From positions 1-54,083 of the IMG/VR virus record IMGVR_UViG_2534682338_000012: DNA of 54,083 nt. One strand, 5' to 3'. The stretch is from a virus (lineage: Duplodnaviria > Heunggongvirae > Uroviricota > Caudoviricetes). The notes under the pieces are model-generated. The model was given only the letters and a program-made list of their open reading frames with translations, made no database searches and was not told the origin of the DNA. A program made the position numbers and the translations under genes. Of this stretch, positions 1,459 through 52,384 are shown in pieces (position 1 is the stretch's first letter; every line of letters starts with the position of its first letter).

Positions 1459-2622
1459 TTACACATCATTAGTACCTTCCTTATTTTTTGACTGGGACAA
1501 ATTTGGGACCGATGGGTTCAGGATCGAGTCTATTTGCCGTGCGTGTTCGGTAAGGTGATTAGGTGCAAGGTGAGCATATCGACGAACCATTTCGATAGAC
1601 TCCCAGCCTCCCATTTCCTGTAACACTGACAACGGGACTCCGGCTTGAACCAGCCAACTTGCCCAGGTGTGTCTCAAGTCGTGAAATCTGAAATCATCAA
1701 TACCAGCCCGTCTCAGCGCCGCTTTCCAGGCTGTGTTTGCGTCATACCGCATCTTCCTTACTGTTGGCGCTTTCGTTCCGTCTGGTTTGGTACAGCTTTC
1801 CTTGTACACAAATACCCAACGGTGATGATTCCCGATTTGTTTTTTCAATACGCGACATGCAGTATCATTCAGCGCAACGCCAATTGCGCGGTTTGATTTA
1901 CTCTCTTCCGGGTTTATCCATGCCACCCGGCGCTGCATATCTATTTGTTGCCATTCAAGGTTGATGATGTTCGAGCGTCTTAAACCTGTTGCCAGTGCAA
2001 ATTCAACAACAGACTTTAATGGCTCCGGACATTCATCAATCAGCCTTTGTGCTTCATGGGGCTCCAGCCAGCGGATCCGTTTATTCTTTGGTTGAGGCAC
2101 TTTAATAATTGGTGCCTTATCCAGCATTTTCCATTCACGCTCTGCGGCTCTTAGTAGGGCCTTTATAAATGAAAGATGCGTAGCCTTCGTTGCAACGGAC
2201 GCTGGTTTTGGCGTGTATTCTGGAACAGGTTTCCCTTTTTTTCTGCATGCTTCTGCCCTGAGTCTCCAGTTTTCCTCATGACGCCGGTTCGTCATTTTCT
2301 GCATTGCTGAATAAATTTTTGATTCAGTAATGTCTCTTAGTTGCATTCCTGCGAAATGTTGAAGCCAGAATCCGATCCGGCTTTTGTCATCGTCCAGTGA
2401 TTTTTTATGTGCTTTCTCTTCAAGCCACCTGACACACGCTTCCTCGAACGTTATATCAGGTATTTCACCAAGTTTGCTGACCCGCCATGCTTCAGCCTTT
2501 AGCTTGTCATGGAGTTCTGTCGCCTGCCTTTTGTCCTTTGTTCCAAGAGACTGTTTAAATCTTTTACCGTTCGGCAATGTGAAACTGGCGTACCATATTT
2601 CACCTCTGCGGAAGAGTGACAT
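1459..2622 (-). CDS. int: tyrosine integrase, P22 Int-like
   Basis: 387 aa, [33 protein letters not shown]... with C-terminal [10 protein letters not shown]...VRRYAH catalytic region; adjacent to tRNA attachment site. Confidence 0.95.
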
Positions 2623-5423: not shown

Positions 5424-5892
5424 TTTGCTGCTCCTCATCATATCGACCCTGCAAGGCCGATTAGTTTCTCCACAAAACAGAGAAGAACACCTGCGGTGGC
5501 AGCCGCCCGGATGGATTGGGTTATGAGCCCGTCGTCCGGTGATGCTCTTCTCTGTTTTGTAAAAAAGGACGGTACCAGCCGGAAGCAAGAGTACAAGCTG
5601 GTACCGCCAGGACTACACACAGCATAAAGTTGTGGTGCCGGGTGCCTCCCGGTGCCTGGCGAAGGTTGCACACCAGGCGGGTGGGTATCTACAGAAGGTC
5701 GACTGTCAGCCTCAACCTTAACCCGCGTGCGCTGAGCCGCATTCACCACAACGCTAAGAATTCTCTCTGGTTGAAAATACTTAGCTGTTATGTGCCTGCT
5801 TTTAGCCACATCAGGCGAGGTGGACCTGGTTATTCCCCAACAACAAGGATTCGGTTAATCTGGTTATCCCCAACAACGCAAAAGGAAAAGAA

Positions 5893-10730: not shown

Positions 10731-11053
10731 CGACGTTAACTCAATGCCAGCAGCAGGTGCTGGATATGCTGATTTCTTATCAGAAAGAACGTGGCTTCCC
10801 GCCAACCAATCAGGAGGTGGCAACCATGCTGGGATACCGTTCGGTGAATGCAGCGGTGGAACATCTTCGCGCACTGGAGAAAAAAGGCGTCATCACGATA
10901 AAGCGTGGTGTGGCCCGGGGGATCACGCTTCATACCGTGGTGAAGGACGACGACAGCGAGGCGGTCGGGATTATCCGCTCACTGCTTGCCGGTGAGGAAA
11001 ACGCCAGGCTGCGTGCAGCCCACTGGTTACATGAGAGGGGCCTGAAAGTATGA
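10727..11053 (+). CDS. LexA N-terminal DNA-binding-domain-like protein (no peptidase domain)
   Basis: 108 aa; LTQCQQQVLDMLISYQKERGFPPTNQEVATMLGYRSVNAAVEHLRALEKKGVI closely parallels the LexA winged-helix domain. Confidence 0.6.
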   Translation: MTTLTQCQQQVLDMLISYQKERGFPPTNQEVATMLGYRSVNAAVEHLRALEKKGVITIKRGVARGITLHTVVKDDDSEAVGIIRSLLAGEENARLRAAHWLHERGLKV

Positions 11054-11439
11054 AGCTAATACTGCCTTTTCCGCCCAGCGTGAACACGTACTGGCGACAC
11101 CCCAACAAAGGGGCGTTTGCAGGTAAGAGCCTGATAAGCGTGGCAGGGCGAAAATTCCAGAGCGCGGCGTGCGCAGCAATAGTTGAGCAGTTACGTCGTC
11201 TGCCGAAACCAACGTCGGCACCTGCTTCAGTGGAGATCGTGTTGTTTCCTCCGGATAACCGGATCCGCGATCTGGACAACTATAACAAGGCGCTGTTTGA
11301 CGCCCTGACCCACGCGGGTGTGTGGGAAGACGACAGTCAGGTGAAAAGAATGCTGGTGGAGTGGGGACCGGTTATCCCGGAGGGGAAGGTCGAGATCACT
11401 ATCAGTAAGTACGAGAAAACGGCGGGTGCAGCCGCCTGA
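11050..11439 (+). CDS. rusA: RusA Holliday junction resolvase
   Basis: MKLILPFPPSVNTYWR... conserved RusA N-terminus and acidic residues. Confidence 0.9.
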   Translation: MKLILPFPPSVNTYWRHPNKGAFAGKSLISVAGRKFQSAACAAIVEQLRRLPKPTSAPASVEIVLFPPDNRIRDLDNYNKALFDALTHAGVWEDDSQVKRMLVEWGPVIPEGKVEITISKYEKTAGAAA

Positions 11440-11459
11440 TCAAGAGGAGAAACGAAGTA

Positions 11460-12267
11460 TGAATAATCTGATGGTCATTGATGGTATTGAAGTTCGTCGT
11501 GATGCTTATGGGCGTTACAGCCTGAACGATCTGCACAGGGCAGCCGGGGGAGAACAAAAAACCGCCCGAAATACTGGCTCTCCAATAAGCAAACCTGTGA
11601 ATTGATTGAACAACTTTTCACCGAGGGTGGAATTCCGCCTCTGGAACAAAATCAACCAGTTAGCGTCATTAATGGCGGAAATAACCAGGGGACGTATGTC
11701 TGCAAAGAACTGGTGTATGCCTATGCAATGTGGATCAGCCCGTCATTCCATCTGAAGGTGATCCGTACTTTCGATATGGTAACCAGCGCACCGGAAAAAT
11801 TATCCGGGCAGGCTGCTGACAAGATGCAGGCTGGAGTGATTCTGCTGGACTTTATGCGCAGGGAGTTAAACCTGTCTAACTCTTCAGTGCTTGGGGCCTG
11901 TCAGAAACTCCAGGAGGCTGTTGGCTTACCGAATCTGGCACCGCGCTATGCCATTGATGCTCCTGCTGACGCGCCTGATGGCTCAAGTCGCCCGACACTG
12001 TCGCTGAGTGCACTGCTGAAACAGTATGGTATCCGCCTTACGGCTAATCAGGCATATCACCAGATGGCGAAGCTGGGGATCGTCGAACAGCGCGAACGAT
12101 ACAGCCGTACAGCGATTAACAACATCAAAAAATTCTGGTCGCTGACGGCGAAAGGCTGCATGTTCGGCAAGAACATCACCAGTCCTGCAAATCCGCGCGA
12201 GACGCAGCCGCACTTCTTCGAATCCCGATTCCCTGAGCTGTTAAAGCTGCTCGATACCGTTCATTGA
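11460..12267 (+). pseudogene. KilA-N domain protein interrupted by frameshift in an A6 run
   Basis: ATG with AAGAGGAGA RBS encodes MNNLMVIDGIEVRRDAYGRYSLNDLHRAAGGEQK then stops; the +1 frame continues ...NRPKYWLSNKQTCELIEQLFTEGG into the 221-aa ORF 11602-12267. Confidence 0.5.
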
Positions 12268-12268
12268 G

Positions 12269-13264
12269 GTGACCGTGAGAGCACTACTGACCCCTGAAAT
12301 TGCCCCGCGTATGGGGATCGTATTGTTCAGACCAGGTTCAGAGCTGATGCCCCTGTTTATGCAGGGGCGTGTCCTGCTGGAGCCTGAGCCGGAACGTTAT
12401 TCATCTTTCGCCAGTGGTGCCGTTCCGGCGGCATCACAACCGCTGGCGGATGATCCTGCCGTTCGGGCCGTATTCCGCAATGAGGCAGTGATCCGTCGTG
12501 CTGGTGGCGTGGAATGTCTTGAAAGCTGGTTACTTCGTGAAAAGGGCTGCCAGTGGCCTCATTCCGACTGGCACAGCGAGAACATGACCACAATGCGACA
12601 CGCTCCGGGCGCAATCCGTCTGTGCTGGCACTGCGATAACCAGCTGCGCGATCAGTTCACGGAACGGCTGGAATCAATGGCAACGGATAACTGTGCCCGC
12701 TGGGTGTTGTCTGTTGTGCGTCGGGATCTCGGTTTTGATGACAGTCACGTTGTGACAATGCCGGAACTGTGCTGGTGGCTGGTTCGTAATGACCTGGCGG
12801 GTGCCTTGCCGGAAAGTGCAGCCCGTAAGGCACTGAGATTACCGAAGCCTGTTGTGCCGTCTGTCACCCGGGAAAGTGACCTTGTTCCTTCGGTTCCTGC
12901 CATCAGCATCATCCAGGATAAAGTGAAAAAGGTGCTGGCGCTGAAAGTGGATCCGGAGTCGCCGGAGTCTTTTATGTTACGCCCAAAACGTCGCCGCTGG
13001 GTTAACGAAAAGTACACGCGCTGGGTTAAGACACAGCCGTGTGCATGTTGTGGAAAGCCTGCTGATGATCCCCACCACCTGATAGGCCACGGTCAGAGGG
13101 GAATGGGTACAAAAGCGCATGACCTCTTTGTGTTGCCTTTGTGCAGAAAGCATCACGACGAGCTGCATGCGGATACCGTGGCATTTGAAGAGAAGTATGG
13201 CTCCCAGTTGGAGCTGATATTTCGTTTTATCGATCGTGCGCTGGCAATAGGCGTACTGGCGTAA
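12269..13264 (+). CDS. DUF968-family prophage protein (HNH-like C-terminus)
   Basis: 331 aa, GTG start; C-terminal CxxCG...HHL...GMGTKAHD...CRKHHDELH motif cluster. Confidence 0.55.
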   Translation: MTVRALLTPEIAPRMGIVLFRPGSELMPLFMQGRVLLEPEPERYSSFASGAVPAASQPLADDPAVRAVFRNEAVIRRAGGVECLESWLLREKGCQWPHSDWHSENMTTMRHAPGAIRLCWHCDNQLRDQFTERLESMATDNCARWVLSVVRRDLGFDDSHVVTMPELCWWLVRNDLAGALPESAARKALRLPKPVVPSVTRESDLVPSVPAISIIQDKVKKVLALKVDPESPESFMLRPKRRRWVNEKYTRWVKTQPCACCGKPADDPHHLIGHGQRGMGTKAHDLFVLPLCRKHHDELHADTVAFEEKYGSQLELIFRFIDRALAIGVLA

Positions 13265-23355: not shown

Positions 23356-23403
23356 TCACTCAGGGGCGCGGAACCGCGCCCCTGTTCTGACGGGTGAAGA
23401 ATC

Positions 23404-32101: not shown

Positions 32102-32649
32102 TGAGGACGATTGAAGCCATGCAGCGACAACTTCTCGGCCTGATTGGGCGGGCAGTGGTGAAAAGCATCAGTGCCGCCACGAAATGTCAGACCGTGGATG
32201 TGTCCCTGATTGCCGGTGAACCCAAAGCCGGGGTTGAACATCTTGAACCCTACGGTTTTACCGCAAGGGCAAACAGCGGTGCGGAAGCGGTGGTGTTGTT
32301 TCCGGATGGCGACCGTTCTCATGCGGTGGTTGTTACGGTGTCGGACCGGCGCTACCGCCTGAAAGGGCTGCAAACGGGTGAGGTGGCTGTCTATGACGAT
32401 CAGGGGCAGTCTGTGACGCTGACCCGGGAGGGGATCGTGGTGGACGGTGCAGGGAAAACGATCACGTTTCGCAATGCACCTGAAGCACGTTTTGAAATGG
32501 ATCTGGAAGTGACCGGACAGGTGAAAGACCTGTGCGACTCCGGCGGCACCACCATGTCAGCGATGCGGCTTGCCTATAACGGGCATCGTCACAGAGAGAA
32601 CGGTCAGGGCAGTAACACCGACAAACCTGATAAAGCGATGGAGGCATGA
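32101..32649 (+). CDS. baseplate assembly protein V / spike
   Basis: 182 aa, canonical position. Confidence 0.7.
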   Translation: MRTIEAMQRQLLGLIGRAVVKSISAATKCQTVDVSLIAGEPKAGVEHLEPYGFTARANSGAEAVVLFPDGDRSHAVVVTVSDRRYRLKGLQTGEVAVYDDQGQSVTLTREGIVVDGAGKTITFRNAPEARFEMDLEVTGQVKDLCDSGGTTMSAMRLAYNGHRHRENGQGSNTDKPDKAMEA

Positions 32650-33073
32650 TGGAACTGTGGCTGACGGTGAACGGTAAACGCACCTGCGCCAGCGCACCGC
32701 TGGATCCGCTGACCCGCGCCGTGGTGATTTCCCTGTTCACCTGGCGGCGGGCGGAGCCTGATGACAATGCCGACGTCCCGATGGGATGGTGGGGGATACC
32801 TGGCCTGCGGTACAGAATGACCGTTACGGCTCCCGACTGTGGTTGCTTCAGCGCAGCAAACTGACCAATCAGCTGGTGCAGACGGTAAGGGGATATATCC
32901 GCGAATGCCTGCAATGGATGACTGATGACGGCGTGGTGTCCCGTATTGATCTGGATATCCGCCGCACCGGGATTAATGAGCTGGGTAACAGTATCACCCT
33001 CTGGCGTCGTGATGGACCAGTAATGATTTCTTTTGATGATCTGTGGAGTGCGATAACGCATGGCGGACAGTGA
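32646..33073 (+). pseudogene. baseplate protein (Mu gp46-like) interrupted by frameshift in G-run
   Basis: ORFs 32646-32864 and 32786-33073 overlap in different frames; junction at GGTGGGGGAT where one extra G would give continuous ...DVPMGWWGDTWPAVQNDRY... Confidence 0.5.
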
Positions 33074-34118
33074 ATTTCAGCGCCCGACGCTGGCAGAAAA
33101 TATCAGTATGCTCCGTAACGATTTATTCGCCAGGCTGGACGTCAGCGACACGCTCCGGCGCATGGATGAAGACGTGCGGGCAAAGGTGTATGCGGCGGCG
33201 CTGCATACGGTCTACGGTTACATCGATTATCTGGCAATGAATATGCTGCCTGACCTGTGCGATGAGTCCTGGCTGGCGCGACATGCTGCGATGAAACGGT
33301 GTCCGCGCAAGGGGGCCACGGTTGCCAGCGGGTATATGCGCTGGGAAGGTGTCAGCGATGGCCTGAAGGTGACTGCCGGGAGTGTTATTCAGCGCGATGA
33401 CCTGGTGCAGTACACGACAACTGACGATGCAATCAGCTCCGGTGGTGTCCTGCGCGTGCCGATCGCCTGCTCAAGTGCAGGTGCGGTCGGTAACGCTGAC
33501 GACGGTACGGCATTAATCCTGGTCACGCCGGTGAATGGTCTGCCGTCTTCCGGTGTGGCTGACACCCTGACAGGCGGATTTGATACTGAAGAGCTGGAAA
33601 CGTGGCGCGCCCGCGTCATTGAGCGGTATTACTGGACGCCGCAGGGCGGGGCTGACGGGGACTATGTCGTCTGGGCTAAAGAAGTGCCTGGCATTACCCG
33701 CGCATGGACATACCGACACTGGATGGGAACGGGGACTGTCGGTGTGATGATTGCCAGCAGTGACCTGATTAATCCCATTCCGGAAGAATCAACGGAAACG
33801 GCGGCAAGACAACATATCGGGCCACTGGCCCCGGTGGCAGGCTCTGATTTGTATGTGTTCAGGCCGGTGGCACATACGGTGGATTTTCATATCCGTGTGA
33901 CGCCGGACACACCGGAAATACGGGCTGCCATCACCGCGGAGTTGCGTTCGTTCCTGCTGCGTGATGGTTATCCGCAGGGAGAACTGAAGGTGTCACGTAT
34001 CAGTGAAGCGATTTCCGGTGCGAACGGGGAATACAGCCATCAGTTGCTTGCACCGGCGGACAATATCACCATTGCGAAAAATGAACTGGCGGTTCTGGGG
34101 GCGATTTCATGGACGTGA
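33060..34118 (+). CDS. baseplate J-like protein
   Basis: 352 aa, canonical position. Confidence 0.75.
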
Positions 34119-37572: not shown

Positions 37573-38394
<822 letters not shown>

Positions 38395-38926
38395 CTAACC
38401 CTTTGAATTTACATAGCGCAAAAAGATACCTTTCCTCATAATGTGAGCTAATTTTATGTTTCGTTTGATGATCGGGTCGGTCTCGAAACCCGTAGCCACG
38501 TCATATGCAAGAACGTGCTACGACTGGCTGGTGAACTTCCGATAGTGCGAGTATTGAATGATTTCCAACTGTTATCGATTTTGCGTATTTTTAGCATGAG
38601 AGGATTCGCACCACCTCCCACCGACCATCTATGACAGTATGCCACTATCTATAGGACTGCTTTGTGCCAGCAGCGGACGGTATGTTTGTTAATTGGCGGA
38701 TTTTCTTGAGTAAATCAATAGGATAGGTGAAAAATTAATCAAAAGTTTATGGCCCTACTACCCATCAAACTGATAGAGCCTCTCCCTGGATGGACGACAA
38801 AATCAGATATTGGAAAGTCAATAATTAATACAAGCACCAACATTTCTTGAAAAGGTTATTTATAAAATGAAATAATTTTTAGCCATGTTATAGTGATGTA
38901 TTAACTTCAGATAAAGAGATTATAGG

Positions 38927-40363
38927 ATGAATGCTAAAATTTCATGTCCAATTGATGGGTATATCATAACAGATTTCATAGGAGACGGAGGGAACGGAGA
39001 TGTGTATCTTGTAACTTCAAGTTCTGGCGAGGAAGCATTCGCTTTAAAAATACTAAGAAATGTACAAGAATCAACTTATAATAGATTCAAGGTAGAAGTT
39101 AATTTCTTGAAAGATAATAAAGTAGATGGGGTAATGCCTTTGCTTGATTTTTACCTTCCAGATAATGCAAAAAAAGAACAAGCTTGGTATCTTATGCCAT
39201 TGGCTGAAAGCTTTAAAGAAAGTGTAAAGCAAAAAGATCCATTATCAATCATCTCTGAATTCATTCATCTCACTCAAACCATTATAGAACTCCATGACCA
39301 AAACATATCTCACCGGGATATAAAGCCAGATAATCTTCTATATTTGAATGGCAGGATATTTTTAGCGGACTTTGGATTGGTAAAATATCCTGAAAGAATC
39401 GAATTAACACCCGATATGCGAGACGTTGGCGCAAAATTCACAATGGCCCCAGAAATGAGACGGATAGCAAATCGTGCTGATGGGCTCCCGGCAGACATTT
39501 ACTCTCTGGCAAAATCAGTATGGATGTCTCTGACTAAAGACTATCTTGGTTTTGATGGTCAGTACAGCACAAAATCTAATATCGGATTATCAAACTACAT
39601 AAAAGAACTATATCTACCGCCCTTAGATGACCTATTAGTGCGCGCAACAGATAACGATCCGTATCAGCGACCAACTGCTGCGGAGTTTAAGACAGAACTT
39701 GAAAATTGGATAAAAATTAATAATGATTTCATCCAGCGTAATTTAACTGAATGGTTCGAAATCCAAAACCTACTATTCCCATACAGCACACCGAATAGTG
39801 TAGAGTGGACAAATAATGATGACATAATAAACATACTCAATTTAATAGCTGGAAGGGAGTCTCTAAATCACATGTTTTATCCTTCCGGTGGGGGAAGCGA
39901 TTTGATTTATGTCGAACCAGCCTCAGAAAAAGGATTTATCGCGCTTATAGTCTGTGAACGATGCGCTGAAATTTTAAAGCCCAAAAAACTTTCATTTGAA
40001 TCATTTGGTCATGATCCCGAATGGAATTATTTTCGTCTTGAATGTGAAGTAATCGAACCAATGAAAATTTCGGGTCCCGTTACTAGTTCAACGATGGATG
40101 AATACATGGTTGAAATTACGCCTGGAAATTACATACCTCCAGATTGCTGGGAAATAAATGAGTATCAAGGTAAACCTCTACCTGAAACCGCTAGAATTGT
40201 CAGCAGGTATATAAAAGGTAGTTTTGTATTTTTCTGCAAGTCATCAACTTATAACAGAATAAGCCAGACGTATAATGCTTGGCAGAATGTGGGGGAAAAT
40301 GAATTCAGAAAGCTAATCGCAAAATTTGCTCAGTATGCTTCTGCCCGAAGAACCATTAAATAA
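38927..40363 (+). CDS. Hanks-type Ser/Thr protein kinase with C-terminal domain of unknown function
   Basis: Gly loop IGDGGNGDVY, catalytic Lys (AFALK), HRDIKPDNLL catalytic loop, DFG (LADFGL), APE (MAPEMRR). Confidence 0.8.
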   Translation: MNAKISCPIDGYIITDFIGDGGNGDVYLVTSSSGEEAFALKILRNVQESTYNRFKVEVNFLKDNKVDGVMPLLDFYLPDNAKKEQAWYLMPLAESFKESVKQKDPLSIISEFIHLTQTIIELHDQNISHRDIKPDNLLYLNGRIFLADFGLVKYPERIELTPDMRDVGAKFTMAPEMRRIANRADGLPADIYSLAKSVWMSLTKDYLGFDGQYSTKSNIGLSNYIKELYLPPLDDLLVRATDNDPYQRPTAAEFKTELENWIKINNDFIQRNLTEWFEIQNLLFPYSTPNSVEWTNNDDIINILNLIAGRESLNHMFYPSGGGSDLIYVEPASEKGFIALIVCERCAEILKPKKLSFESFGHDPEWNYFRLECEVIEPMKISGPVTSSTMDEYMVEITPGNYIPPDCWEINEYQGKPLPETARIVSRYIKGSFVFFCKSSTYNRISQTYNAWQNVGENEFRKLIAKFAQYASARRTIK

Positions 40364-40719
40364 TATTCCAACTACTGTGGCAGCGTATTTAATACTTAAT
40401 TGGTCGCTACAGTGTACAAGGAAAGTGTGTTATATAGCGTTCATATTCTGATAAGCATATACAAATCAGGTGTTTTTCGGCTATTATCTTTTGGTATTCC
40501 GTTTTGCCTGCAGCACACTGACACATCTGCTTCTCGCTTACAGCCGCCGAGGTAAGAGAGCACGTTACCGCGTCGGTGGACTTACTGACCTATCAAAATA
40601 ACCGCTTAATGCCAGAAGCGGGTATTCAGAGTATCCTGCAACCATATGGTCATTACACAAAGTGGATAGCAAATGTTTCAGTTTTTTGGCTCAGGATTGA
40701 GCTGGAGTGAGGATAAATA

Positions 40720-41337
40720 ATGAAAAGTAGCCTTGAACAAGCTTTCCAAGAAGCAGCACACGCAGCAGATCGTGCAGTCAGCGGTGCGATGCTGAAGTAT
40801 TCTAATGGGTTGGTCACGGATGAAGACGACATAACAGGGGTACTGATCGGCCGGTTGGATGCTGTGTTTTCCGAAGAAATTGGTGGTGTAACATGGTCTT
40901 CATCCATTCTAAGGCACCGTAAGGGGGTAGCAGCAGAAGAAAAGAAGGTCGGTGCTGACATGCTGCTCCATGTCTCAATCTCAACACCAGAGCTCACCTA
41001 TTCAAAGGGGGTTTTGATTCAGTCAAAGAGAGTTGATGAAGGTATTGCAATGACAGCACAAGGTCACAAAGAATTGCTGGGACAGTGCGACAAAATGCTA
41101 AATATTACCCCGGCTTCGTTTGTTTTTACCTATACGAAGTCAGGGATGCGCTGCGCTTCCGCAACGAAGATTGTTGGAACAAGTAGCCGAATACTTAACG
41201 ATTCGTGCAACCTGACCTCTTATCGGTTCTTCCTGGAACTGTTCCGATGCACAATTGGAGATCGCAACATTACATCGGCCAAGTTTGATGATCTTCGGAT
41301 ACCTCAAGGCATTGCCATCAAGGGAACACTGGAGTAA
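40720..41337 (+). CDS. hypothetical protein (205 aa)
   Basis: ATG with GAGTGAGG RBS downstream of kinase; no recognisable domain. Confidence 0.5.
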   Translation: MKSSLEQAFQEAAHAADRAVSGAMLKYSNGLVTDEDDITGVLIGRLDAVFSEEIGGVTWSSSILRHRKGVAAEEKKVGADMLLHVSISTPELTYSKGVLIQSKRVDEGIAMTAQGHKELLGQCDKMLNITPASFVFTYTKSGMRCASATKIVGTSSRILNDSCNLTSYRFFLELFRCTIGDRNITSAKFDDLRIPQGIAIKGTLE

Positions 41338-41809: not shown

Positions 41810-41855
41810 ATTCGTAATGCGAAGGTCGTAGGTTCGACTCCTATTATCGGCACCA
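41810..41855. repeat. attR of prophage / attL of P4-like element (partial tRNA-Thr 3' end)
   Basis: 46-bp copy of tRNA 3' end lacking the 5' half. Confidence 0.7.
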
Positions 41856-42019
41856 TCACCTAGTTTTCCCAAGTCAACCCACATCAACAAAATCATTTAA
41901 AAACATATATATTACGTTATTTTCATACGTTTGAGGTCAACCCTTGTCTCTTGAAATCAACACGCGGTTGGGGGCACAATCAGGGGCATGTTCTGTTCGG
42001 TCTAGGAAATGTGCCCCCA

Positions 42020-43210
42020 ATGATGCTGAATGCCCGCAAGGTTGAAGCTGCGAAAGGAAAAGAGAAGAGCTACAAGCTGTTTGATGGAGGTGGCCTATAC
42101 CTTCAGGTCGAACCTAATGGCTCGCGTTACTGGCGTATGAAATACCGTTTTGCTGGTAAAGAGAAACGATTGTCCTTTGGTGTTTATCCAACAGTCACAC
42201 TTGCTGATGCCAGACAAAAACGAGAAGACGCGAAGAAACTACTCGCAGCAGGTGAAGATCCCGGCGAAGTCAAAAAAGCCAAAAAGCAGGCTTTAAATGC
42301 AGCGATTGAGACACTTAACCCATTCAGAGAAGTGGCGTTAGAGTGGCACAAAATGAAATCACCCAAATGGTCTGAGGGCTATGCTTCCGACATCATTGAG
42401 GCATTCGAGAAAGACATTTTCCCGCATATTGGGCACAGACCTATAGCTGATATTCAGCCCCTTGAACTGCTTGAAGTTCTGAGGTTGATAGAAGCTCGAG
42501 GCGCTATGGAGAAAGCGAAGAAAGTCCGTCAGCGATGCGGTGAAGTTTTTCGCTATGCCATCGTAACGGGTAGGGCAATCTACAATCCGGCACCGGATCT
42601 TGCCAGTGCGATGCAAGGACATGAAGCAGTCCACTATCCATTCCTCAAAGCCAACGAACTACCGGAGTTCTTTAATGCCCTTAATTCTTATTCAGGAAGT
42701 CCAATTGTATTGTTGGGGGCGCATTTACTTATCCTGACAGGTCTACGAACTGGAGAACTACGAGCAGGTGAGTGGCGAGAGGTGGATTTTGATAATGCGG
42801 TGTGGGAGATCCCAAAAGAACGTATGAAAATGCGTAGGAGCCATATTGTCCCGTTGTCAAAACAAGCATTATCCCATCTCAAAAGTTTGAAAGAACTAAC
42901 TGGGAACTACCCGCTGATGTTCCCTGGACGCAACGATCCTAGCAAATTTATGAGTGAAGCAAGCATTAATCAGGTGTTTAAACGTATTGGATATGCAGGG
43001 CGTGTTACGGGGCATGGTTTCAGGCATACGATGAGTACAATCCTACATGAGAAAGGATTTAACAGCGCTTGGATTGAAACCCAGCTTGCTCATTCGGACA
43101 AAAACTCTATTCGTGGAATTTATAACCATGCCCAATATCTCGAAGGGAGAAGAGAAATGATGCAATGGTATGCTAATTATTTATCTGAGCTAATTGGTAC
43201 TCATAAATGA
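42020..43210 (+). CDS. P4-type tyrosine integrase
   Basis: N-terminal LNARKVEAAKGKEKSYKLFDGGGLYLQV (DUF4102-like arm-binding domain), C-terminal HGFRHT...Y catalytic region; track start is TTG, ATG chosen. Confidence 0.85.
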   Translation: MMLNARKVEAAKGKEKSYKLFDGGGLYLQVEPNGSRYWRMKYRFAGKEKRLSFGVYPTVTLADARQKREDAKKLLAAGEDPGEVKKAKKQALNAAIETLNPFREVALEWHKMKSPKWSEGYASDIIEAFEKDIFPHIGHRPIADIQPLELLEVLRLIEARGAMEKAKKVRQRCGEVFRYAIVTGRAIYNPAPDLASAMQGHEAVHYPFLKANELPEFFNALNSYSGSPIVLLGAHLLILTGLRTGELRAGEWREVDFDNAVWEIPKERMKMRRSHIVPLSKQALSHLKSLKELTGNYPLMFPGRNDPSKFMSEASINQVFKRIGYAGRVTGHGFRHTMSTILHEKGFNSAWIETQLAHSDKNSIRGIYNHAQYLEGRREMMQWYANYLSELIGTHK

Positions 43211-44031
43211 ATATTTTAAAAATTAATAATACTGATTCTCTGCTCAGAGATTACTACCAGTTGGATGAAGCTTCAGAAAAAATTGGTTGTAGTGAAAAGG
43301 ATATACTCTGGTTTGCCAGAGAACGAGATGTAGAGCTATGCATGGAATTCCATGATGATGAGTATGATGTTTCATGTGGTTTGAAGATTGATGGTCAAAT
43401 GGATGAGTTCTTATCTAATCTGAAATATTTACCACGAGATAGAAATGGCAATATTATGTTGTCAGACTTAAGTTCTATAAGAATCCCTGATGAAGATAAT
43501 TTAATTGATAAAAATGGTTTTATTCGATGTTTCATATCCGGTTTATGGGCTGTTGATTATGAATATAAAGATCTGTTAGTTAAGCATGAGGGGCAACCGG
43601 ATTCTTGGCCTATTCATTTTCTACTGGCGGGTACGCCTAATATAAATTGTAAGGTAATTCTTTATGTAAATTATGATGAAAAAGAAAATTATTATCTTTT
43701 TGAGGTTTTGTGGATTACAAAGGTACAGATTCAAAAATTCATTGATATAGTCTTATGCGAACAAAAGCGGATAAAAAACGCCAATAAATATAAATCACAA
43801 TCTGAGGCGCAAAAACAAAAACATGCTGTTCCTCGAGCTGAAATACTCATGGCTATTATTTCGCTCTATCATCGTGATATGAGGCTAAGAAGAGAGAGTC
43901 CAGCAGCGATAGCTGATTATCTTTTTCAACATGCCAGTGAGTTCTGGCCTAAGACCGGAGAACCGCCTTTGAGCTATGATACTGTTGTTAGTTTGCTACG
44001 TAGTTGCATGAAAAACATTAAGTTTAACTAA
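43207..44031 (+). CDS. hypothetical protein (274 aa), AT-rich
   Basis: Start overlaps integrase stop (ATGA), no recognisable domain. Confidence 0.5.
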   Translation: MNILKINNTDSLLRDYYQLDEASEKIGCSEKDILWFARERDVELCMEFHDDEYDVSCGLKIDGQMDEFLSNLKYLPRDRNGNIMLSDLSSIRIPDEDNLIDKNGFIRCFISGLWAVDYEYKDLLVKHEGQPDSWPIHFLLAGTPNINCKVILYVNYDEKENYYLFEVLWITKVQIQKFIDIVLCEQKRIKNANKYKSQSEAQKQKHAVPRAEILMAIISLYHRDMRLRRESPAAIADYLFQHASEFWPKTGEPPLSYDTVVSLLRSCMKNIKFN

Positions 44032-44156
44032 ATATTAACAATTATTGTGGCTAATGATTTTGGATTTTTTTCATTAGTCACATTTTTCTCATTTATAACC
44101 TATGTTTTAATTTTCCGTGTTGAAGCCAATAGACTTAGATAAACGGAGAATGATGA

Positions 44157-44447
44157 ATGTTATCTAAACATGATAATACTACTTTGCAACGACCTTCAAT
44201 GGATTCTCTGATCGATATGAAGTTTATTACTTCCGATTGTTTATTAAGTGATAAATGGATTTATCGATTGATTTCTCTGAATCGCTTTCCAAAACCTATA
44301 AAAATAGGTCGGATGTCACGATGGCGCGCTGCTGATTATTATAAGTGGCGAGATGGGTTTGAAGAAAACTCAGGTCAACATTTTGAGGGAATGAGAAATA
44401 AGGCAAGAGCAATTAATAAAGGGAATAGATTATCACCTACTCCCTAA
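44157..44447 (+). CDS. AlpA-family phage regulatory protein
   Basis: C-terminal region resembles AlpA HTH (RLISLNRFPKPIKIGRMSRWRAADYYKW); true start may be internal (~44217). Confidence 0.55.
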   Translation: MLSKHDNTTLQRPSMDSLIDMKFITSDCLLSDKWIYRLISLNRFPKPIKIGRMSRWRAADYYKWRDGFEENSGQHFEGMRNKARAINKGNRLSPTP

Positions 44448-44479
44448 GCCTTAATTGATAGTTAGTAATATTTAACTGA

Positions 44480-44653
44480 TTAGCCTTTAGGGTCAATCCC
44501 GCGTGATTGGAGTTCTTTGCGTAAAATTCTTTTAATCCAAGTTGCCAACGCGCTATCTCCATCTTTGCGCATTTCGTTTTCGAGTTGCAACCTAAAATCG
44601 TCGGTAAGACGCATTTGGAATGGTGGAGAACGTTTCTCTTGTGGTGTTGACAT
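44480..44653 (-). CDS. small ribbon-helix-helix-like protein (57 aa), not in ORF track
   Basis: Minus-strand ORF MSTPQEKRSPPFQMRLTDDFRLQLENEMRKDGDSALATWIKRILRKELQ...; beta-strand/helix/helix pattern; two copies of CATGGTAATTACC palindrome at and upstream of start. Confidence 0.4.
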   Translation of the reverse strand: MSTPQEKRSPPFQMRLTDDFRLQLENEMRKDGDSALATWIKRILRKELQSRGIDPKG

Positions 44654-44784
44654 GGTAATTACCCTAGAATATGATGACTACATGGTAATTACCATTGTAA
44701 GTATAGTTCGCTTGTAAAAGCAATGCCCGATTGTGCGGGAACACAAATCGGGCATTTAACCAACCGTTATAAGAGGTAACGAAG

Positions 44785-44961
44785 ATGGCTAAACAGAAGT
44801 GTACCTGGTTATTTGCGGCGATCAACCGCAGTCAACGCAATGCCCGTCCTGTGATGTTAAGGATCACCGCAGATAACGAGCGGTCAGCGCGGCGCAGACT
44901 TGCCCCGGACTATGTACTGAGCTTTGCCGGGCGCATTCCCTGCGGAGGTGAACATGCGTAA
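44785..44961 (+). CDS. small protein (58 aa), possibly Icd-like
   Basis: AAGAGG RBS; MAKQKCTWLFAAINRSQRNARPVMLRITADNERSARRRL...; translationally coupled to next gene; family assignment from memory, low certainty. Confidence 0.35.
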   Translation: MAKQKCTWLFAAINRSQRNARPVMLRITADNERSARRRLAPDYVLSFAGRIPCGGEHA

Positions 44962-45313
44962 TTATCCGCACCCCGGCGAACGCTGGCAGCATGAACGTGG
45001 CTGGACGGTCACGATTATCCGATTAATAGAAGCCTCGCCCTCTGTGGCGCTGGTTAATCCTGAATTCAGCTGTGAAGTGCTGATACGTCATGACAGCGAC
45101 AACCAGCTTTCTTCCTGCCCTCTGGCATGGTTTGAACAGCGGTATACGCGCCTGTTTGATGTACCGCTCTTTAAGCCTGCACCAGCTCCTGCAGGCGGTA
45201 GTGGTTCCGGCCCGCTGACACTGCATCCGTCTGTGCTATTTATCCGCTGGCGGGAGCGTAGCATATGGCGTTCTGCTGAGCCTGACGACGGTCACTATTC
45301 AAAGTTTCTCTGA
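44954..45313 (+). CDS. hypothetical protein
   Basis: Start MRNYPHPGERW after GGAGGTG, overlapping upstream stop. Confidence 0.5.
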   Translation: MRNYPHPGERWQHERGWTVTIIRLIEASPSVALVNPEFSCEVLIRHDSDNQLSSCPLAWFEQRYTRLFDVPLFKPAPAPAGGSGSGPLTLHPSVLFIRWRERSIWRSAEPDDGHYSKFL

Positions 45314-45344
45314 CAAAATACCGCTGAAAACGGAGTAATCCACG

Positions 45345-45629
45345 ATGAATATTTCAAACGGGCACAACGGTGCTCAGGGCCACACTTTGCCTGAAAAACA
45401 CAATACCGGTGCTTTTGCCTATGGGTTGTCAGAGGACAGTTTCGGAAAGCTGACCCGCGCAAGAAATGCCTGCGACATGCTCCAGCTTCTCTTTTCTGAA
45501 TACCCGTCTCAGGCCGGAGCACTGGACGCTGGCTGTGCGCATGGTGTCGCCGCGCTGATGGAGTACCTGCTGGCAGATTTGACGGATATTGCACACAGTT
45601 GCGCACTGATTGAAGGAGGTGCCAGATGA
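45345..45629 (+). CDS. hypothetical protein
   Basis: 94-aa ORF in operon upstream of primase. Confidence 0.45.
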   Translation: MNISNGHNGAQGHTLPEKHNTGAFAYGLSEDSFGKLTRARNACDMLQLLFSEYPSQAGALDAGCAHGVAALMEYLLADLTDIAHSCALIEGGAR

Positions 45630-46009
45630 ACCAGCCGCAGGTTTCCATTTTCCCGGCAGAAATGACCACCGCGCTTTACCGGCGGGCTATTGCTTCAGCA
45701 TGGCGGCAGAAAATGCTGAACGAAACTGGCAGTGATCAGTATGGTCCGCACAGCCTGACGGTGGAGCGTATTGAAATGGCCATTGCGCTGCATATCGAGT
45801 GCGTACTGATTAACGAGTACGGCGAAGTGCAGGGCGCCGCTACCGCGCTGGCACTGCTGACTGACATGCTGGAGCCGTCACTGCTGACCGCGCCGCCGGT
45901 ACTGACCGCGCGCGGCTGTGAAGTGATGGCGGAGATGTACCGCACGCTTCCGGCGGCCTTTGATGACTTCTGCAGTACCGGTGTGACGTTGTATGAGGGG
46001 GAAGTATGA
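45626..46009 (+). CDS. hypothetical protein
   Basis: 127-aa ORF, stop-start overlap with neighbours. Confidence 0.45.
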   Translation: MNQPQVSIFPAEMTTALYRRAIASAWRQKMLNETGSDQYGPHSLTVERIEMAIALHIECVLINEYGEVQGAATALALLTDMLEPSLLTAPPVLTARGCEVMAEMYRTLPAAFDDFCSTGVTLYEGEV

Positions 46010-48678
46010 CAATACGGACGGTTACGCAGATTTCAGCCGCCGCACGGGGGAAATGGCCCGTTATTCTGCAGATGCTGCGTATTGATGTACCTGAAAACGG
46101 CAGGCACGGTCCCTGCCCGAAATGTGGGGGCAAGGATCGTTTTCGCCTTGATGACCTTGACGGGCGCGGGACGTGGATCTGCAGCCAGTGTGGCAATGGT
46201 GACGGTCTGGATCTGGTTAAGCTCGTAACCGGTTACAGCGTCAGAAAGGCTGCGCAGGAGGTGGCGCAGGTGCTTAATGTGCCGGATGTGCAGGAACTGC
46301 CTGTTAAGCCTGCCAGACAAAAAGCCCCTAAACGAGACATGGGTCTTACCGTGGCGGCGCTGATGAAAGAGAGCCACACGGGAGAAAGCGCCTATCTGAC
46401 AGGAAAAGGGTTCGCCGGATACCCGGCCTCTCTGACCGGAAGCGTGCAGCATATCAGCGGTAAGGATTTTCCTGCCGGTTCCCTGCTGTTACCACTCACG
46501 ACCAACACCGGAGCCGTGACCGGTGCACAGCTTATCGCCCCGACGGGTGAAAAAAGCATACTGCCCGGCAGCACGATGAAAGGCGCGTTTGTGTCGCTCA
46601 GCCCGTTACCGTCTGAACCACCGGTACAGGTGGTGATTACCGAAGGTTACGCTACGGCGCTGACGGTAAGCCAGCTCACTGCCGGATGCGTAGTGGCTGC
46701 CATATCTGCGGGCAACCTGCCCAATGTGGCGCAGTCGCTGCGGGCACGCTGGCCTGAGGTAAAAATTATCATCGCCGGTGATAACGATTTTCAGGACGGG
46801 GGTGAGAATCCCGGCAGAGCCTTTGCTGAACGGGCGGCAAAAGCTGTTGGCGGCTGGATGACGCTGCCACCAGGAGAGATTAAGGCTGACTGGAATGACT
46901 TTCATCGGGAGCACGGTATTACCCGTGCCCGTGAAGCCTTTCGCAACGGTCTGGTACTGTGCGGGGAAGGCCGCACGCAACTGCCGCACGGGTTCCGTCT
47001 TACCCAGGAATATCTCTGGTATGAAAAGCAGGTACAGCGCAACGGTGAGACGGAGATCCAGAACGTCAAAATATGCAGCCCGCTGCGCGTGACGGCAATT
47101 ACCTGCGATGCCGATGGCGGTAACTTCGGACGACTGCTGGAATGGGAAGATACGTGGGGTGAGTGTCGCCGCTGGGCGATGCCAATGGAAATGCTGAGCG
47201 GCAGTGGTGAGGAACTGCGCCGGGTTCTGCTGGTTAACGGGCTGTCTTATATCAGCACCACCGGTGAGGCACGCGCACGCCTGATGGAATATATCTCACT
47301 GTGTAAACCGGAACGCCGCGTGACCTGCGTCAGTCGTACTGGCTGGCATGGTCAGGTTTACGTCCTGCAGGATGAGGTCAGCGGTGAAGGTGCAGAGGGT
47401 GTCATTCTCCAGACCACTTCCGTGCAGGGGCGTGATTTCCGCGTGTCGGGCACAACAGAGGAATGGCGGGAGCATGTATCCCGCTACTGTACCGGCAACT
47501 CCCGCGTGGCATTTGCTGTCAGCCTGGCCTTTGCTGCACCACTGTTACGGCTGGTTGGTATGGACGGCGGCGGCTACCACCTCAAAGGGGAATCGACAGA
47601 CGGTAAGACCACCACCATGAAAGCGGCAACCTCCGTCTGCGGCGGGCCTGACTACTGGCAGACATGGCGGGCCACCGGCAACGCGCTGGAGGGATGCGCC
47701 AGCCGCCGTAACGATGCCGCCATGATGCTTGATGAGATCCGGGAAGTTGACGGACGCGAGGCAGGCAATATCGCCTACATGCTGGCAAACGGTCAGGGCA
47801 AGGGCCGTGCCGGTACGGACGGTGAGCTGCGTACCCGTAAGCAGTGGCGCCTGTTGTTCTTTTCAACTGGCGAGTTGTCTCTGACCGAACATGCGGCAAA
47901 GGCCGGTGAGCGTACTTTTGCCGGGATGGAAGTCAGGATGATCCAGATCCCCAGCGATTCCGGGAAGTTTGGCGTTTTTGAGGAGCTGCACGGCTTCGAC
48001 AGCGGCAAGGCTCTGGCAGAGCATCTTGAATGGGCCACGTCCTGCTACTACGGTTCGCCGTTCCGGGAGTGGCTGAAAGCACTGACCGCTGATCTTAACG
48101 GACTAACGGCACAGGCAAAATCGCTGATGAAGGAATATGCTGCCGCCCTGACTCCGAAAGATGCAGGCAATCAGGTGGGCCGGGCTGTGAACCGCTTTGC
48201 ACTGGTGGCGATGGCAGGTGAACTGGCAACCCGTCTGGGTATCACCGGCTGGCCTGAGGGTGAAGCACTGCGGGCAACCCGCGTCTGCCTGAACGCATGG
48301 CTGAAAGATCGCGGGCACACCGCCAATCAGGAAGATATCGCCGCACTGGAGCAGGTTCGCAGTTTCTTTACCGCGAATCAGTACAGCCGCTTTGCAGACT
48401 GGTATGACGAGCGCAACCGCCCCGGCAATATGGTGGGCTGGCGCAGGGTGGAGAAAGGCAGTACCGCGCAGGGCACGGAAGCTGTCACTACGTTCTATGT
48501 CATGCCGTCCGGCTGGAAAGAAATCTGCAGGGGATTTGACCCGCGCAAGGTGGCGCGTCTGTGCGCAGATCGTGGATACCTGCTGCCCTCCACTGATGGC
48601 AAACTCCAGACAACCATTCGCCCGCCAGAGATGAATCCCCGCAGGCTCTATGTCTTCAACAGCGAGGTGCCGGGTTAA
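46006..48678 (+). CDS. P4 alpha-like primase-helicase
   Basis: 890 aa; N-terminal zinc-binding CPKCGG...CSQCGNGDG, TOPRIM-like acidic region, central P-loop (GESTDGKT) helicase region. Confidence 0.85.
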   Translation: MTIRTVTQISAAARGKWPVILQMLRIDVPENGRHGPCPKCGGKDRFRLDDLDGRGTWICSQCGNGDGLDLVKLVTGYSVRKAAQEVAQVLNVPDVQELPVKPARQKAPKRDMGLTVAALMKESHTGESAYLTGKGFAGYPASLTGSVQHISGKDFPAGSLLLPLTTNTGAVTGAQLIAPTGEKSILPGSTMKGAFVSLSPLPSEPPVQVVITEGYATALTVSQLTAGCVVAAISAGNLPNVAQSLRARWPEVKIIIAGDNDFQDGGENPGRAFAERAAKAVGGWMTLPPGEIKADWNDFHREHGITRAREAFRNGLVLCGEGRTQLPHGFRLTQEYLWYEKQVQRNGETEIQNVKICSPLRVTAITCDADGGNFGRLLEWEDTWGECRRWAMPMEMLSGSGEELRRVLLVNGLSYISTTGEARARLMEYISLCKPERRVTCVSRTGWHGQVYVLQDEVSGEGAEGVILQTTSVQGRDFRVSGTTEEWREHVSRYCTGNSRVAFAVSLAFAAPLLRLVGMDGGGYHLKGESTDGKTTTMKAATSVCGGPDYWQTWRATGNALEGCASRRNDAAMMLDEIREVDGREAGNIAYMLANGQGKGRAGTDGELRTRKQWRLLFFSTGELSLTEHAAKAGERTFAGMEVRMIQIPSDSGKFGVFEELHGFDSGKALAEHLEWATSCYYGSPFREWLKALTADLNGLTAQAKSLMKEYAAALTPKDAGNQVGRAVNRFALVAMAGELATRLGITGWPEGEALRATRVCLNAWLKDRGHTANQEDIAALEQVRSFFTANQYSRFADWYDERNRPGNMVGWRRVEKGSTAQGTEAVTTFYVMPSGWKEICRGFDPRKVARLCADRGYLLPSTDGKLQTTIRPPEMNPRRLYVFNSEVPG

Positions 48679-48699
48679 GGCTTTGCGTGAGTCTTATTT

Positions 48700-48900
48700 A
48701 TTAAGGGTAACAGGTGAAACAGGTGGAACAACCGTATTTTACAGGGCTGAATCTGTTCCACCTTCTGAAATAGTGAGGTGGAACAGATGTAACGCCAGCC
48801 AATCCGCTGTTCCACCTTGTTACCCGCGATGTTCCACCGGTGCAGTGTATATAAATGCTTTATAAAACAAATGGGTAACACATGTTTCACCTGTTACACC
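48700..48900. repeat. ori/crr-like iteron cluster
   Basis: At least five copies of GGTGGAACA/TGTTCCACC in both orientations plus inverted GTAACAGGTGAAAC...GTTTCACCTGTTAC. Confidence 0.5.
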
Positions 48901-49078
48901 GCATCAGGGACATAAAGCAGACTGAAACAGAGGGCATTTTTATCTGGCTGGCTTTCATAGCCACGTCTGAATAACCGCAAGCGCCCGTTGTACCAGCCAC
49001 CACACACTGAGCACCGATAGTGTGCTTGTGTCAGCCACGACACAATTGACGTAACGAACCAACCCGACAGGAGAAGTC

Positions 49079-50370: not shown

Positions 50371-50375
50371 TATTA

Positions 50376-52137: not shown

Positions 52138-52384
52138 TGTTAAGTTTTTTTTCGAAAGATGAGGATTTGACAAAATCCCCTCCTGTTGTAGGGGCTAAAA
52201 TTCTTAATTTATTTGACGAAACAAAAAAGAAAAAATTAGTATTTTCGATTTAGCAAAAGAATTAAAGAAAAACAACTCTCTAGGAGTGCGTGCAATTTAT
52301 TTTGGAATGGTCTTTCTTTATACTCTTGATCTTATCGATTTCGATGAGCCATATGTGATAAATAAAAATGTTAAGAATAAATAA
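52137..52384 (+). pseudogene. small middle ORF (~80 aa if contiguous) interrupted by frameshift in A-rich tract
   Basis: ATG overlaps upstream stop (TGATG); frame 0 gives 38 aa then stop; adjacent frame continues ...ISIFDLAKELKKNNSLGVRAIYFGMVFLYTLDLIDFDEPYVINKNVKNK to overlap the next gene. Confidence 0.35.

What the first reader, a model, noticed from the sequence alone, without database searches (positions are those of the whole stretch)
11460..12267. KilA-N domain gene disrupted at an A6 homopolymer
The N-terminal KilA-N-like ORF stops right after GGEQK at CAAAAAACC and the reading frame resumes one base out of phase to give the 221-aa remainder. This is a sequencing artefact, an inactivation of a potentially toxic gene in the lysogen, or a slippage site.
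Basis: seen in the sequence. Interest (0 to 1): 0.35.

Follow-up and report, generated by a model that had tools for sequence, protein, structure and literature searches.

The report
Frameshifted KilA-N gene, probably sequencing error
A prophage gene for a KilA-N DNA-binding protein is split in two because a run of seven A's reads as six in this draft E. coli genome; this is most likely a base-calling error, or otherwise a trivial recent mutation, so it is ordinary.

Summary
A KilA-N gene (ATG 11459, stop 12267) changes frame at an A6 run (11556-11561). Adding one A restores a 269-aa protein that occurs verbatim on at least 995 public contigs.

Every close homologue checked has A7 and one uninterrupted gene:
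- SfV orf44, phiSTEC1575-Stx2k and E. coli CRE10.
- 78 of 78 IMG/VR contigs.
- 287 of 360 complete E. coli records match the A7 probe exactly; none matches the A6 probe exactly.

The divergent SfII-type allele has no A-run at this site, so no slippery site is conserved.

The window is identical to the 2011 draft assembly of E. coli H120. It carries three more near-private homopolymer length changes:
- 5561-5566, one A more than other genomes.
- 32792-32796, which breaks the GP46 baseplate gene.
- 52223-52228, which breaks an 82-aa ORF in a P4-like satellite.

It has no private indel outside homopolymers. Other public frameshifted copies of this gene mostly sit in contigs full of homopolymer contractions.

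My estimates: assembly or base-calling artefact about 0.7, a real very recent 1-nt deletion about 0.27, programmed frameshifting or phase variation about 0.03 or less. Interest is low.

The parts
11459..12267 (+). The whole KilA-N domain gene as it would be with A7. It would be 810 nt and 269 aa; here it is 809 nt and out of frame after codon 34.
   Evidence: The homologous intact CDSs are 810 nt in E. coli CRE10, phage SfV (orf44) and phiSTEC1575-Stx2k.
11459..11605 (+). N-terminal fragment ORF of 48 aa: 34 KilA-N residues, then 14 out-of-frame residues, then TGA.
   Evidence: On its own it scores 16.4 bits against Pfam KilA-N, below the cut-off of 23.8.
11556..11561 (+). The A6 homopolymer, the site of the missing base. 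Homologues have A7, encoding Gln-Lys-Asn as CAA AAA AAC.
   Evidence: Alignment. Probe searches. IMG/VR scan, 78 of 78 with A7.
11560..12267 (+). The remainder of the gene in the -1 frame, residues 35-269 of the intact protein. The first possible start is TTG 11602, giving the 221-aa ORF. That TTG overlaps the TGA of the upstream fragment (TTGA).
   Evidence: Pfam KilA-N positions 52-105 are matched with E=4.6e-13.
5561..5566 (.). Another homopolymer length discrepancy, probably in non-coding sequence. The window has A6; all five listed top hits and loci L005 and L006 have A5, and no complete E. coli genome matches the window's 81-nt version exactly, out of about 2390 genomes carrying the segment.
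32792..32796 (+). Another homopolymer discrepancy. The window has G5; 1099 of 1101 complete-genome records differ from the window's probe, and the four listed plus L005 and L006 read G6. It frameshifts the phage GP46 baseplate gene (32649 to about 33074) after ...PMGWWG.
52223..52228 (+). Another homopolymer discrepancy. The window has A6; 10 other copies of the P4-like satellite from nine assemblies (two fetches are the same VG12A2 record) have A7. It frameshifts an 82-aa ORF that starts at 52137.

Best explanation
The gene is an ordinary, intact-type KilA-N domain gene. It lies in the nin-like region (rusA - kilA-N - DUF968/HNH - Q antiterminator) of an SfV-like prophage inserted at tRNA-Thr thrW in E. 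coli H120.

In this draft assembly the A7 run that encodes Gln-Lys-Asn is recorded as A6. The missing base puts the reading frame out of phase after codon 34. That produces a 48-aa stub and a 221-aa 'remainder' ORF.

The most likely cause is a homopolymer length miscall in the assembly consensus rather than biology, so the real phage gene is probably intact.

Shown here: the one-base difference, that it is private to this assembly, and that it co-occurs with other homopolymer discrepancies.

Inferred: that the cause is technical.
For: (1) The window is identical to GCA_000190855.1 (E. coli H120, scaffold GL871844.1). Locus L011 equals window 1602-22267 exactly.

(2) Adding one A gives a 269-aa protein found verbatim on at least 995 contigs. 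The 221-aa part carries no amino-acid change, so there is no secondary decay.

(3) A7 is universal in close homologues. This holds in the alignment and in 78 of 78 IMG/VR contigs. In complete E. coli genomes, 287 of 360 records match the A7 probe exactly and 0 of 360 match the A6 probe exactly. Every listed non-exact record spans 82 nt, which is the A7 length.

(4) The same 54 kb has three more homopolymer length changes that are private or nearly private. They go in both directions: 5561 (+1), 32792 (-1, breaks the essential baseplate gene GP46 in an otherwise complete prophage) and 52223 (-1, breaks an ORF that is intact in all 10 other copies checked). There is no private indel outside homopolymers.

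(5) Controls: the complete genomes L005 and L006 show no private single-base indels over the same roughly 33 kb.

(6) In the P4-like island, only 3 differences in 12.3 kb are private to the window. Two of them are homopolymer-linked.

(7) Other public frameshifted copies of this gene mostly lie in contigs full of homopolymer contractions. L009 has at least 15 in 6.4 kb, and the G5->G4 series carries further contractions nearby. This shows that such alleles in databases are commonly artefacts.

(8) From memory, not verified with the tools: the 2011 Broad E. coli H-series drafts were made by 454 pyrosequencing, whose typical error is homopolymer over- and under-calling.
Against: No reads were available, so the cause is inferred.

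Homopolymers are also the natural hot spot for real 1-nt indels, and prophage genes are dispensable.

One other assembly (L008, a Logan assembly of SRR444606) has the same A6 on a different haplotype in about 10 kb that is otherwise free of indels. A real A7->A6 mutation is therefore plausible.

A clean lineage of 15 contigs carries a different 1-nt deletion (CC->C) 1-2 nt downstream of the A-run. This shows that the gene can truly be lost.

One of the five single-base length differences first seen (C4 at 23379-23383) turned out to be a natural polymorphism shared by 57 complete genomes.

The sequencing platform of H120 could not be confirmed.
Confidence: 0.7

Rival explanations
1. A genuine, very recent 1-nt deletion by replication slippage (A7->A6) has turned the KilA-N gene into a pseudogene. 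On this view the change is neutral decay of a resident prophage. The stub and the remainder are non-functional, or at most the 221-aa C-terminal part is made at a low level by re-initiation at the TTG that overlaps the stub's TGA.
For: Homopolymers are natural indel hot spots. The GP46 baseplate gene of the same prophage is also frameshifted, as expected if the prophage is decaying. The same A6 occurs in an otherwise clean contig from another sample (L008). A CC->C deletion lineage with intact neighbours exists.
Against: There is no secondary decay at all, since the restored protein equals the common protein. The allele is absent from 360 complete-genome copies and 78 IMG/VR copies. Four private homopolymer changes in 54 kb, in both directions, with no other private indels, would extrapolate to several hundred per genome. 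That is unusual for a living E. coli but typical of flow-based draft assemblies (an inference). The intact gene is tolerated in the prophages of more than 2000 complete genomes, so there is no sign of selection for its loss.
Confidence: 0.27
2. The A-run is a functional recoding or switching site. This could be programmed -1 ribosomal frameshifting, transcriptional slippage or phase variation. It would yield either the 48-aa peptide or the full-length regulator.
For: A-runs are intrinsically slippery. tRNA-Lys on AAA (11558-11560) could re-pair with AAA (11557-11559). A GGAG-containing stretch lies just upstream.
Against: Close homologues are all A7 and in frame. The divergent SfII-type allele encodes the equivalent residues with no A-run, so nothing is conserved as a shift site. 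In the zero frame the run reads CAA AAA ACC, which is not an X XXY YYZ heptamer. The GGAG is only 3 nt from the run, a spacing known to favour +1 rather than -1 shifts (established knowledge from RF2 and dnaX; not tested here). The downstream 99 nt fold no better than shuffles (z = -1.19). A6 is shorter than the runs known to give efficient transcriptional slippage (from memory). Run length does not vary among strains, unlike a contingency locus.
Confidence: 0.025
3. Two naturally separate genes: a small N-terminal peptide gene and a 221-aa gene.
For: Gene callers have annotated 48-aa and 221-aa products in several assemblies.
Against: Those split copies come from at least three different 1-nt deletions (G5->G4, A7->A6, CC->C) within 15 nt, on different haplotypes. 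Most are in error-ridden contigs. The break cuts the KilA-N fold at position 34 of 107. There is no ribosome-binding site in front of TTG 11602.
Confidence: 0.005

Closest known systems
KilA-N domain-containing protein of SfV-like and lambdoid prophages (SfV orf44 NP_599076.1; E. coli WP_001061378.1; PHROG 129 'transcriptional regulator')
   Same: It occupies the same position, between rusA and the DUF968/HNH gene upstream of Q. Nucleotide identity is 98-99.8%. After adding one A it has the same 269-aa length and the same N-terminal KilA-N domain.
   Different: Here the A7 run is recorded as A6, so the ORF is split. No experimental function is known for this subfamily. It has no PDB relative by sequence and no NCBIfam model.
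Homopolymer length errors of flow-based or long-read sequencing in draft assemblies
   Same: The changes are single-base length changes confined to runs of 5-7 identical bases. They go in both directions, are private to one assembly and break otherwise conserved ORFs. The same type of lesion is seen in bulk in other public contigs of this gene.
   Different: This was not demonstrated at read level, and the platform of H120 is recalled from memory only.
Programmed -1 frameshift sites on A-runs (IS1 insA-insB' A AAA AAC; dnaX A AAA AAG)
   Same: An A-rich run lies at the junction of two overlapping frames, and the downstream frame is -1.
   Different: The run is out of register for tandem slippage. 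The frameshifted arrangement is not conserved in homologues. There is no stimulatory structure, and the upstream SD-like element is at the wrong spacing. As a curiosity, it is the intact A7 allele that carries A AAA AAC in register; there a -1 slip would only truncate the protein.
Phage P1 KilA (the founding KilA-N protein, lethal when expressed in E. coli)
   Same: It shares the N-terminal KilA-N DNA-binding domain (Pfam PF04383).
   Different: The relationship is at domain level only, and the C-terminal halves are unrelated. The toxicity of this protein has not been tested. Its intact presence in thousands of lysogens argues against a need to inactivate it.

Membership tests
KilA-N domain proteins (Pfam PF04383) | Match to the KilA-N profile above the gathering score over most of the 107-position domain | tested here: met
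   The restored 269-aa protein scores 94.4 bits (cut-off 23.8) over profile positions 5-105. As encoded in the window, the domain is split: the stub scores 16.4 bits (below the cut-off) and the 221-aa ORF scores 49.4 bits, covering only positions 52-105.
KilA-N domain proteins (Pfam PF04383) | A single uninterrupted ORF that encodes the whole domain | tested here: not met
   The frame changes after codon 34 at the A6 run. Homologues have one 810-nt CDS.
PHROG 129 (phage 'transcriptional regulator') | Full-length match to the family profile | tested here: met
   E=1.2e-128, residues 1-267 against profile positions 2-268 of 273, for the restored protein.
Programmed -1 ribosomal frameshift site | The two-frame arrangement is conserved in homologues | tested here: not met
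   All close homologues are in frame with A7: 78 of 78 IMG/VR contigs, 287 of 360 exact matches and 0 of 360 with A6. The SfII-type allele lacks the run.
Programmed -1 ribosomal frameshift site | A slippery heptamer X XXY YYZ in register with the zero frame | tested here: not met
   The zero-frame codons are CAA AAA ACC. Only single-tRNA slippage would be possible.
Programmed -1 ribosomal frameshift site | A downstream stimulatory RNA structure | tested here: not met
   The 99 nt after the run have an MFE of -21.3 kcal/mol, z = -1.19, and 21 of 200 shuffles fold at least as well. Pseudoknots were not evaluated.
Phase-variable (contingency) homopolymer locus | Run length varies frequently among closely related strains | tested here: not met
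   A7 is essentially invariant. A6 was found in only 4 assemblies, and at least one of them is riddled with errors.
Sequencing or assembly homopolymer artefact | The discrepancy is private to the assembly, and restoring it gives the consensus sequence | tested here: met
Sequencing or assembly homopolymer artefact | An excess of other private homopolymer length changes in the same assembly, with no private indels elsewhere | tested here: met
   Three more lie at 5561, 32792 and 52223. The control genomes L005 and L006 have none. Only 54 kb could be examined.
Sequencing or assembly homopolymer artefact | Reads, or independent resequencing, disagree with the consensus | not testable with these tools
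   No read data were available, and the platform of GCA_000190855.1 was not retrievable.
Genuine pseudogene (real mutation) | The lesion is confirmed in reads or shared by independent isolates of the same lineage | tested here: inconclusive
   The same A6 occurs in 3 other assemblies, but on different haplotypes with 13-74 mismatches. These are independent events, and whether they are errors or mutations is unknown.

The most novel reading that the evidence does not exclude
The G5-AGAAC-A7-CC stretch at codons 30-36 of this prophage KilA-N gene could be a real mutational switch. On this reading, recurrent reversible 1-nt slippage (A7<->A6, G5<->G4) turns a phage regulator off and on in lysogen populations. 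The OFF state might still make a 48-aa peptide and, through the overlapping TTGA, a 221-aa C-terminal protein.
Probability: 0.03. Interest if true: 0.35.

Novelty: not a real feature. Interest (0 to 1): 0.05.

Why it matters
It matters little biologically. If the base is simply miscalled, the gene is an ordinary intact KilA-N gene of a common SfV-like prophage. If the deletion is real, it is a routine young pseudogene in a prophage.

The practical value is as a caution. This draft assembly appears to carry homopolymer errors about once per 13 kb, so other 'disrupted genes' in it should not be over-interpreted. The 48-aa 'hypothetical' or 'DNA-binding' proteins in public databases that derive from this site are mostly annotation debris.

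Tried and rejected
- A scan of genome contigs for the flanks with a variable gap found nothing. The representative genomes apparently lack this allele.

- I tried to obtain H120 sequence beyond the window, to count homopolymer frameshifts in core genes. A look-up of the last window gene returned 10 other assemblies but not H120. A look-up of the frameshifted 38-aa product was not on record.

- Literature searches for the sequencing platform of E. coli H120, and for work on SfV orf44 or KilA-N, gave nothing usable.

- The intergenic C4 run at 23379-23383 was first counted as a fourth contraction. I dropped it after finding that 57 complete genomes share it.

- A promoter and terminator scan around the gene showed nothing above shuffled expectation.

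- PDB sequence and NCBIfam searches for the restored protein were empty.

- Programmed frameshifting, phase variation and the 'two natural genes' reading were considered and rejected on comparative grounds.

Full report
**What is in the sequence**

The window reads ...GCC GGG GGA GAA CAA AAA ACC GCC CGA..., with an A6 run at 11556-11561.

It encodes MNNLMVIDGIEVRRDAYGRYSLNDLHRAAGGEQK. It then runs on for 14 unrelated codons (TARNTGSPISKPVN) and ends at TGA 11603-11605.

The -1 frame is open from 11503 to 12267. From AAC 11560-11562 onward it encodes NRPKYWLSNKQTCELIEQLF... The 221-aa ORF in the finding is this frame counted from its first possible start codon, TTG 11602.

Inserting one A, or re-reading one base, gives a continuous 269-aa protein. 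Its KilA-N match (Pfam PF04383) covers residues 7-109 with E=4.5e-27. The stub alone scores below the Pfam cut-off, and the 221-aa ORF keeps only the second half of the domain. The restored protein also matches PHROG 129 ('transcriptional regulator') end to end.

**Context**

The window begins with proA and tRNA-Thr (thrW, 1369-1444). An SfV/SfII-like prophage follows. It runs from the integrase at 1459-2622 (minus strand), through a nin-like region, lysis genes, an HK97-type head and a Mu-like contractile tail, to about 37.5 kb. This layout follows the annotated relatives.

The KilA-N gene sits between rusA (11050-11439) and a DUF968/HNH gene (12269-13264), upstream of the Q antiterminator.

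A P4-like satellite lies downstream (about 41.8-54 kb). In E. coli VG12A2 the satellite sits directly at thrW, with no prophage in between.

**Homologues**

The 901-nt region has matches in 2302 of 5426 complete E. coli genomes, 2113 of them covering most of it. All 40 best hits span 902 nt and are annotated as a single KilA-N CDS. The same holds for phages SfV (orf44), phiSTEC1575-Stx2k and others.

The alignment shows one difference at the critical site: A7 in the homologues and A6 in the window. The more divergent SfII-type allele encodes the equivalent residues with no A-run at all.

An 81-nt probe with A6 found 360 complete-genome records, none of them identical. The A7 version of the probe matched 287 of the 360 exactly, and every sampled remainder kept the 82-nt length.

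In IMG/VR, 78 of 78 contigs with these flanks have A7.

The restored 269-aa protein exists verbatim on at least 995 contigs. The lesion has therefore accumulated no further change.

**Source of the window, and the artefact test**

The exact 221-aa product is recorded for E. coli H120. Locus L011 (GCA_000190855.1, scaffold GL871844.1) is identical to window 1602-22267.

I compared the whole window with two complete genomes that carry related prophages (L005, L006) and with VG12A2 (L007). This revealed further single-base length differences, all in homopolymers:
- **A6 at 5561-5566.** All five listed top hits and loci L005 and L006 have A5, and none of about 2390 genomes carrying the segment matches the window's version exactly.
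- **G5 at 32792-32796.** 1099 of 1101 records differ from the window's probe, and the four listed plus L005 and L006 read G6. The change frameshifts the GP46 baseplate gene.
- **A6 at 52223-52228.** Ten other copies of the satellite, from nine assemblies (two fetches are the same VG12A2 record), have A7. The change frameshifts an 82-aa ORF.
- **C4 at 23379-23383.** This one proved to be a natural polymorphism shared by 57 genomes, so I discounted it.

The window has no private indel outside homopolymers. The control genomes L005 and L006 have no private single-base indels over the same roughly 33 kb.

In the satellite, only three differences in 12.3 kb are private to the window. Two of them are homopolymer-linked.

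That makes four private homopolymer changes in 54 kb. They go in both directions, and three of them break ORFs that are intact elsewhere. This pattern is what consensus errors of flow-based sequencing look like. From memory only, the 2011 Broad H-series drafts were 454 assemblies; I could not confirm this.

**Other split copies in public data**

The 48-aa stub and its near-identical variants occur elsewhere. They come from three different 1-nt deletions within 15 nt:
- **A7->A6**, in three other assemblies on different haplotypes.
- **G5->G4**, listed in 76 blocks of the collection.
- **CC->C**, in 15 contigs.

Contigs with G4, and the A6 contig L009, carry many additional homopolymer contractions in neighbouring genes. 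L009 has at least 15 in 6.4 kb. They are clearly low-accuracy assemblies.

Two cases look clean: the A6 contig L008, and the CC->C lineage. Real loss of the gene therefore probably occurs now and then. This is why a genuine mutation in H120 cannot be dismissed.

**Programmed recoding**

Nothing supports it:
- The frameshifted arrangement is not conserved.
- The run is out of register for an X XXY YYZ heptamer.
- The upstream GGAG is only 3 nt away, a spacing that favours +1 shifts (established knowledge, not tested here).
- The downstream RNA is unremarkable (z = -1.19).
- The run length does not vary among strains.

**Verdict**

The feature is real in the deposited sequence. It is most likely a base-calling or assembly error (about 0.7). 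Otherwise it is a very young, neutral pseudogene (about 0.27). Programmed slippage or phase variation is very unlikely (about 0.03 or less).

The idea that a toxic gene was inactivated has no support, because the intact gene is carried by thousands of lysogens.

Either way the finding is ordinary. The gene family, its position and this kind of lesion are all well known.

Noticed in passing
window 32649-33074 (G-run at 32792-32796): The phage GP46-family baseplate gene is frameshifted after ...PMGWWG, because a run that is G6 in L005, L006 and all listed complete-genome hits reads G5 here. 1099 of 1101 records differ from the window's probe. One record (NZ_CP081794.1, 43.7 kb) shares G5 exactly.
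   Followed up: partly
window 52137-52385 (A-run at 52223-52228): An 82-aa ORF lies between the SMEK-domain gene and the DUF2326 gene of the P4-like satellite. It is frameshifted here (A6), whereas 10 other copies from nine assemblies have A7.
   Followed up: partly
window 5561-5566: The window has A6 where L005, L006 and all five listed top hits have A5; none of about 2390 complete E. coli genomes carrying the segment matches the window's version exactly. NCBI's annotation pipeline (PGAP) labels the common A5 state a 'frameshifted hypothetical protein'. The minus-strand ORF made by A6 (5438-5809) looks non-coding (Arg/Pro-rich). The reference protein behind that pseudogene call may itself derive from such an error.
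   Followed up: partly
window 41810-54083: A P4-like satellite is integrated in tandem after the SfV-like prophage at thrW. It holds an integrase (41951-43210), a TOPRIM/DUF927 primase (46006-48678), two Psu-family genes (49079-50370), Ogr/Delta, and SMEK-domain (51178-52137) plus DUF2326 (52368-54083) cargo that looks like a defence hot spot. It is 99.97% identical to E. coli VG12A2, where the satellite sits alone at thrW.
   Followed up: partly
window 37573-41337: Between the prophage tail-fibre and invertase end and the satellite lie three genes: a LEM-3-like GIY-YIG gene (37573-38349, minus strand), a 478-aa Ser/Thr protein kinase gene (38927-40363; Pkinase E=4.6e-21) and a 205-aa ORF with no Pfam match. 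They are possibly prophage-end cargo or defence genes.
   Followed up: no
loci L016-L025 and L013 (G5->G4), L026-L029 (CC->C), L008-L010 (A7->A6): Public databases hold dozens of 48-aa 'hypothetical' or 'DNA-binding' proteins that are stubs of this KilA-N gene. They are created by three different 1-nt deletions within 15 nt. Most G4 contigs also carry other homopolymer contractions, such as A6->A5 in the neighbouring LexA-like gene, which recurs in four contigs.
   Followed up: partly
window 11602-11605: The stub's stop codon TGA overlaps the first possible start TTG of the 221-aa ORF (TTGA). This arrangement could permit termination-reinitiation. It is probably fortuitous, and no Shine-Dalgarno sequence lies upstream.
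   Followed up: no
L001 451-457 (intact allele; equivalent to window 11556-11562): In the intact A7 allele the run forms A AAA AAC in register, which is the IS1-type -1 slippery heptamer. A -1 slip there would end at a TAA ten codons later and give a peptide of about 45 aa. There is no evidence that this is used, and the SfII-type allele lacks the run.
   Followed up: no
window 50301 and 47226: These are the only two window-private substitutions in the 12.3-kb satellite. The one at 50301 changes GGGTT to GGGGT, which amounts to coupled changes in the lengths of two adjacent homopolymers. That is again suggestive of a flow-type error.
   Followed up: no
window 23379-23383: An intergenic C4 run downstream of the major capsid gene differs from C5 in L005 and L006. 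The C4 state is shared exactly by 57 of 834 complete-genome records, so it is a natural polymorphism and not an error.
   Followed up: yes
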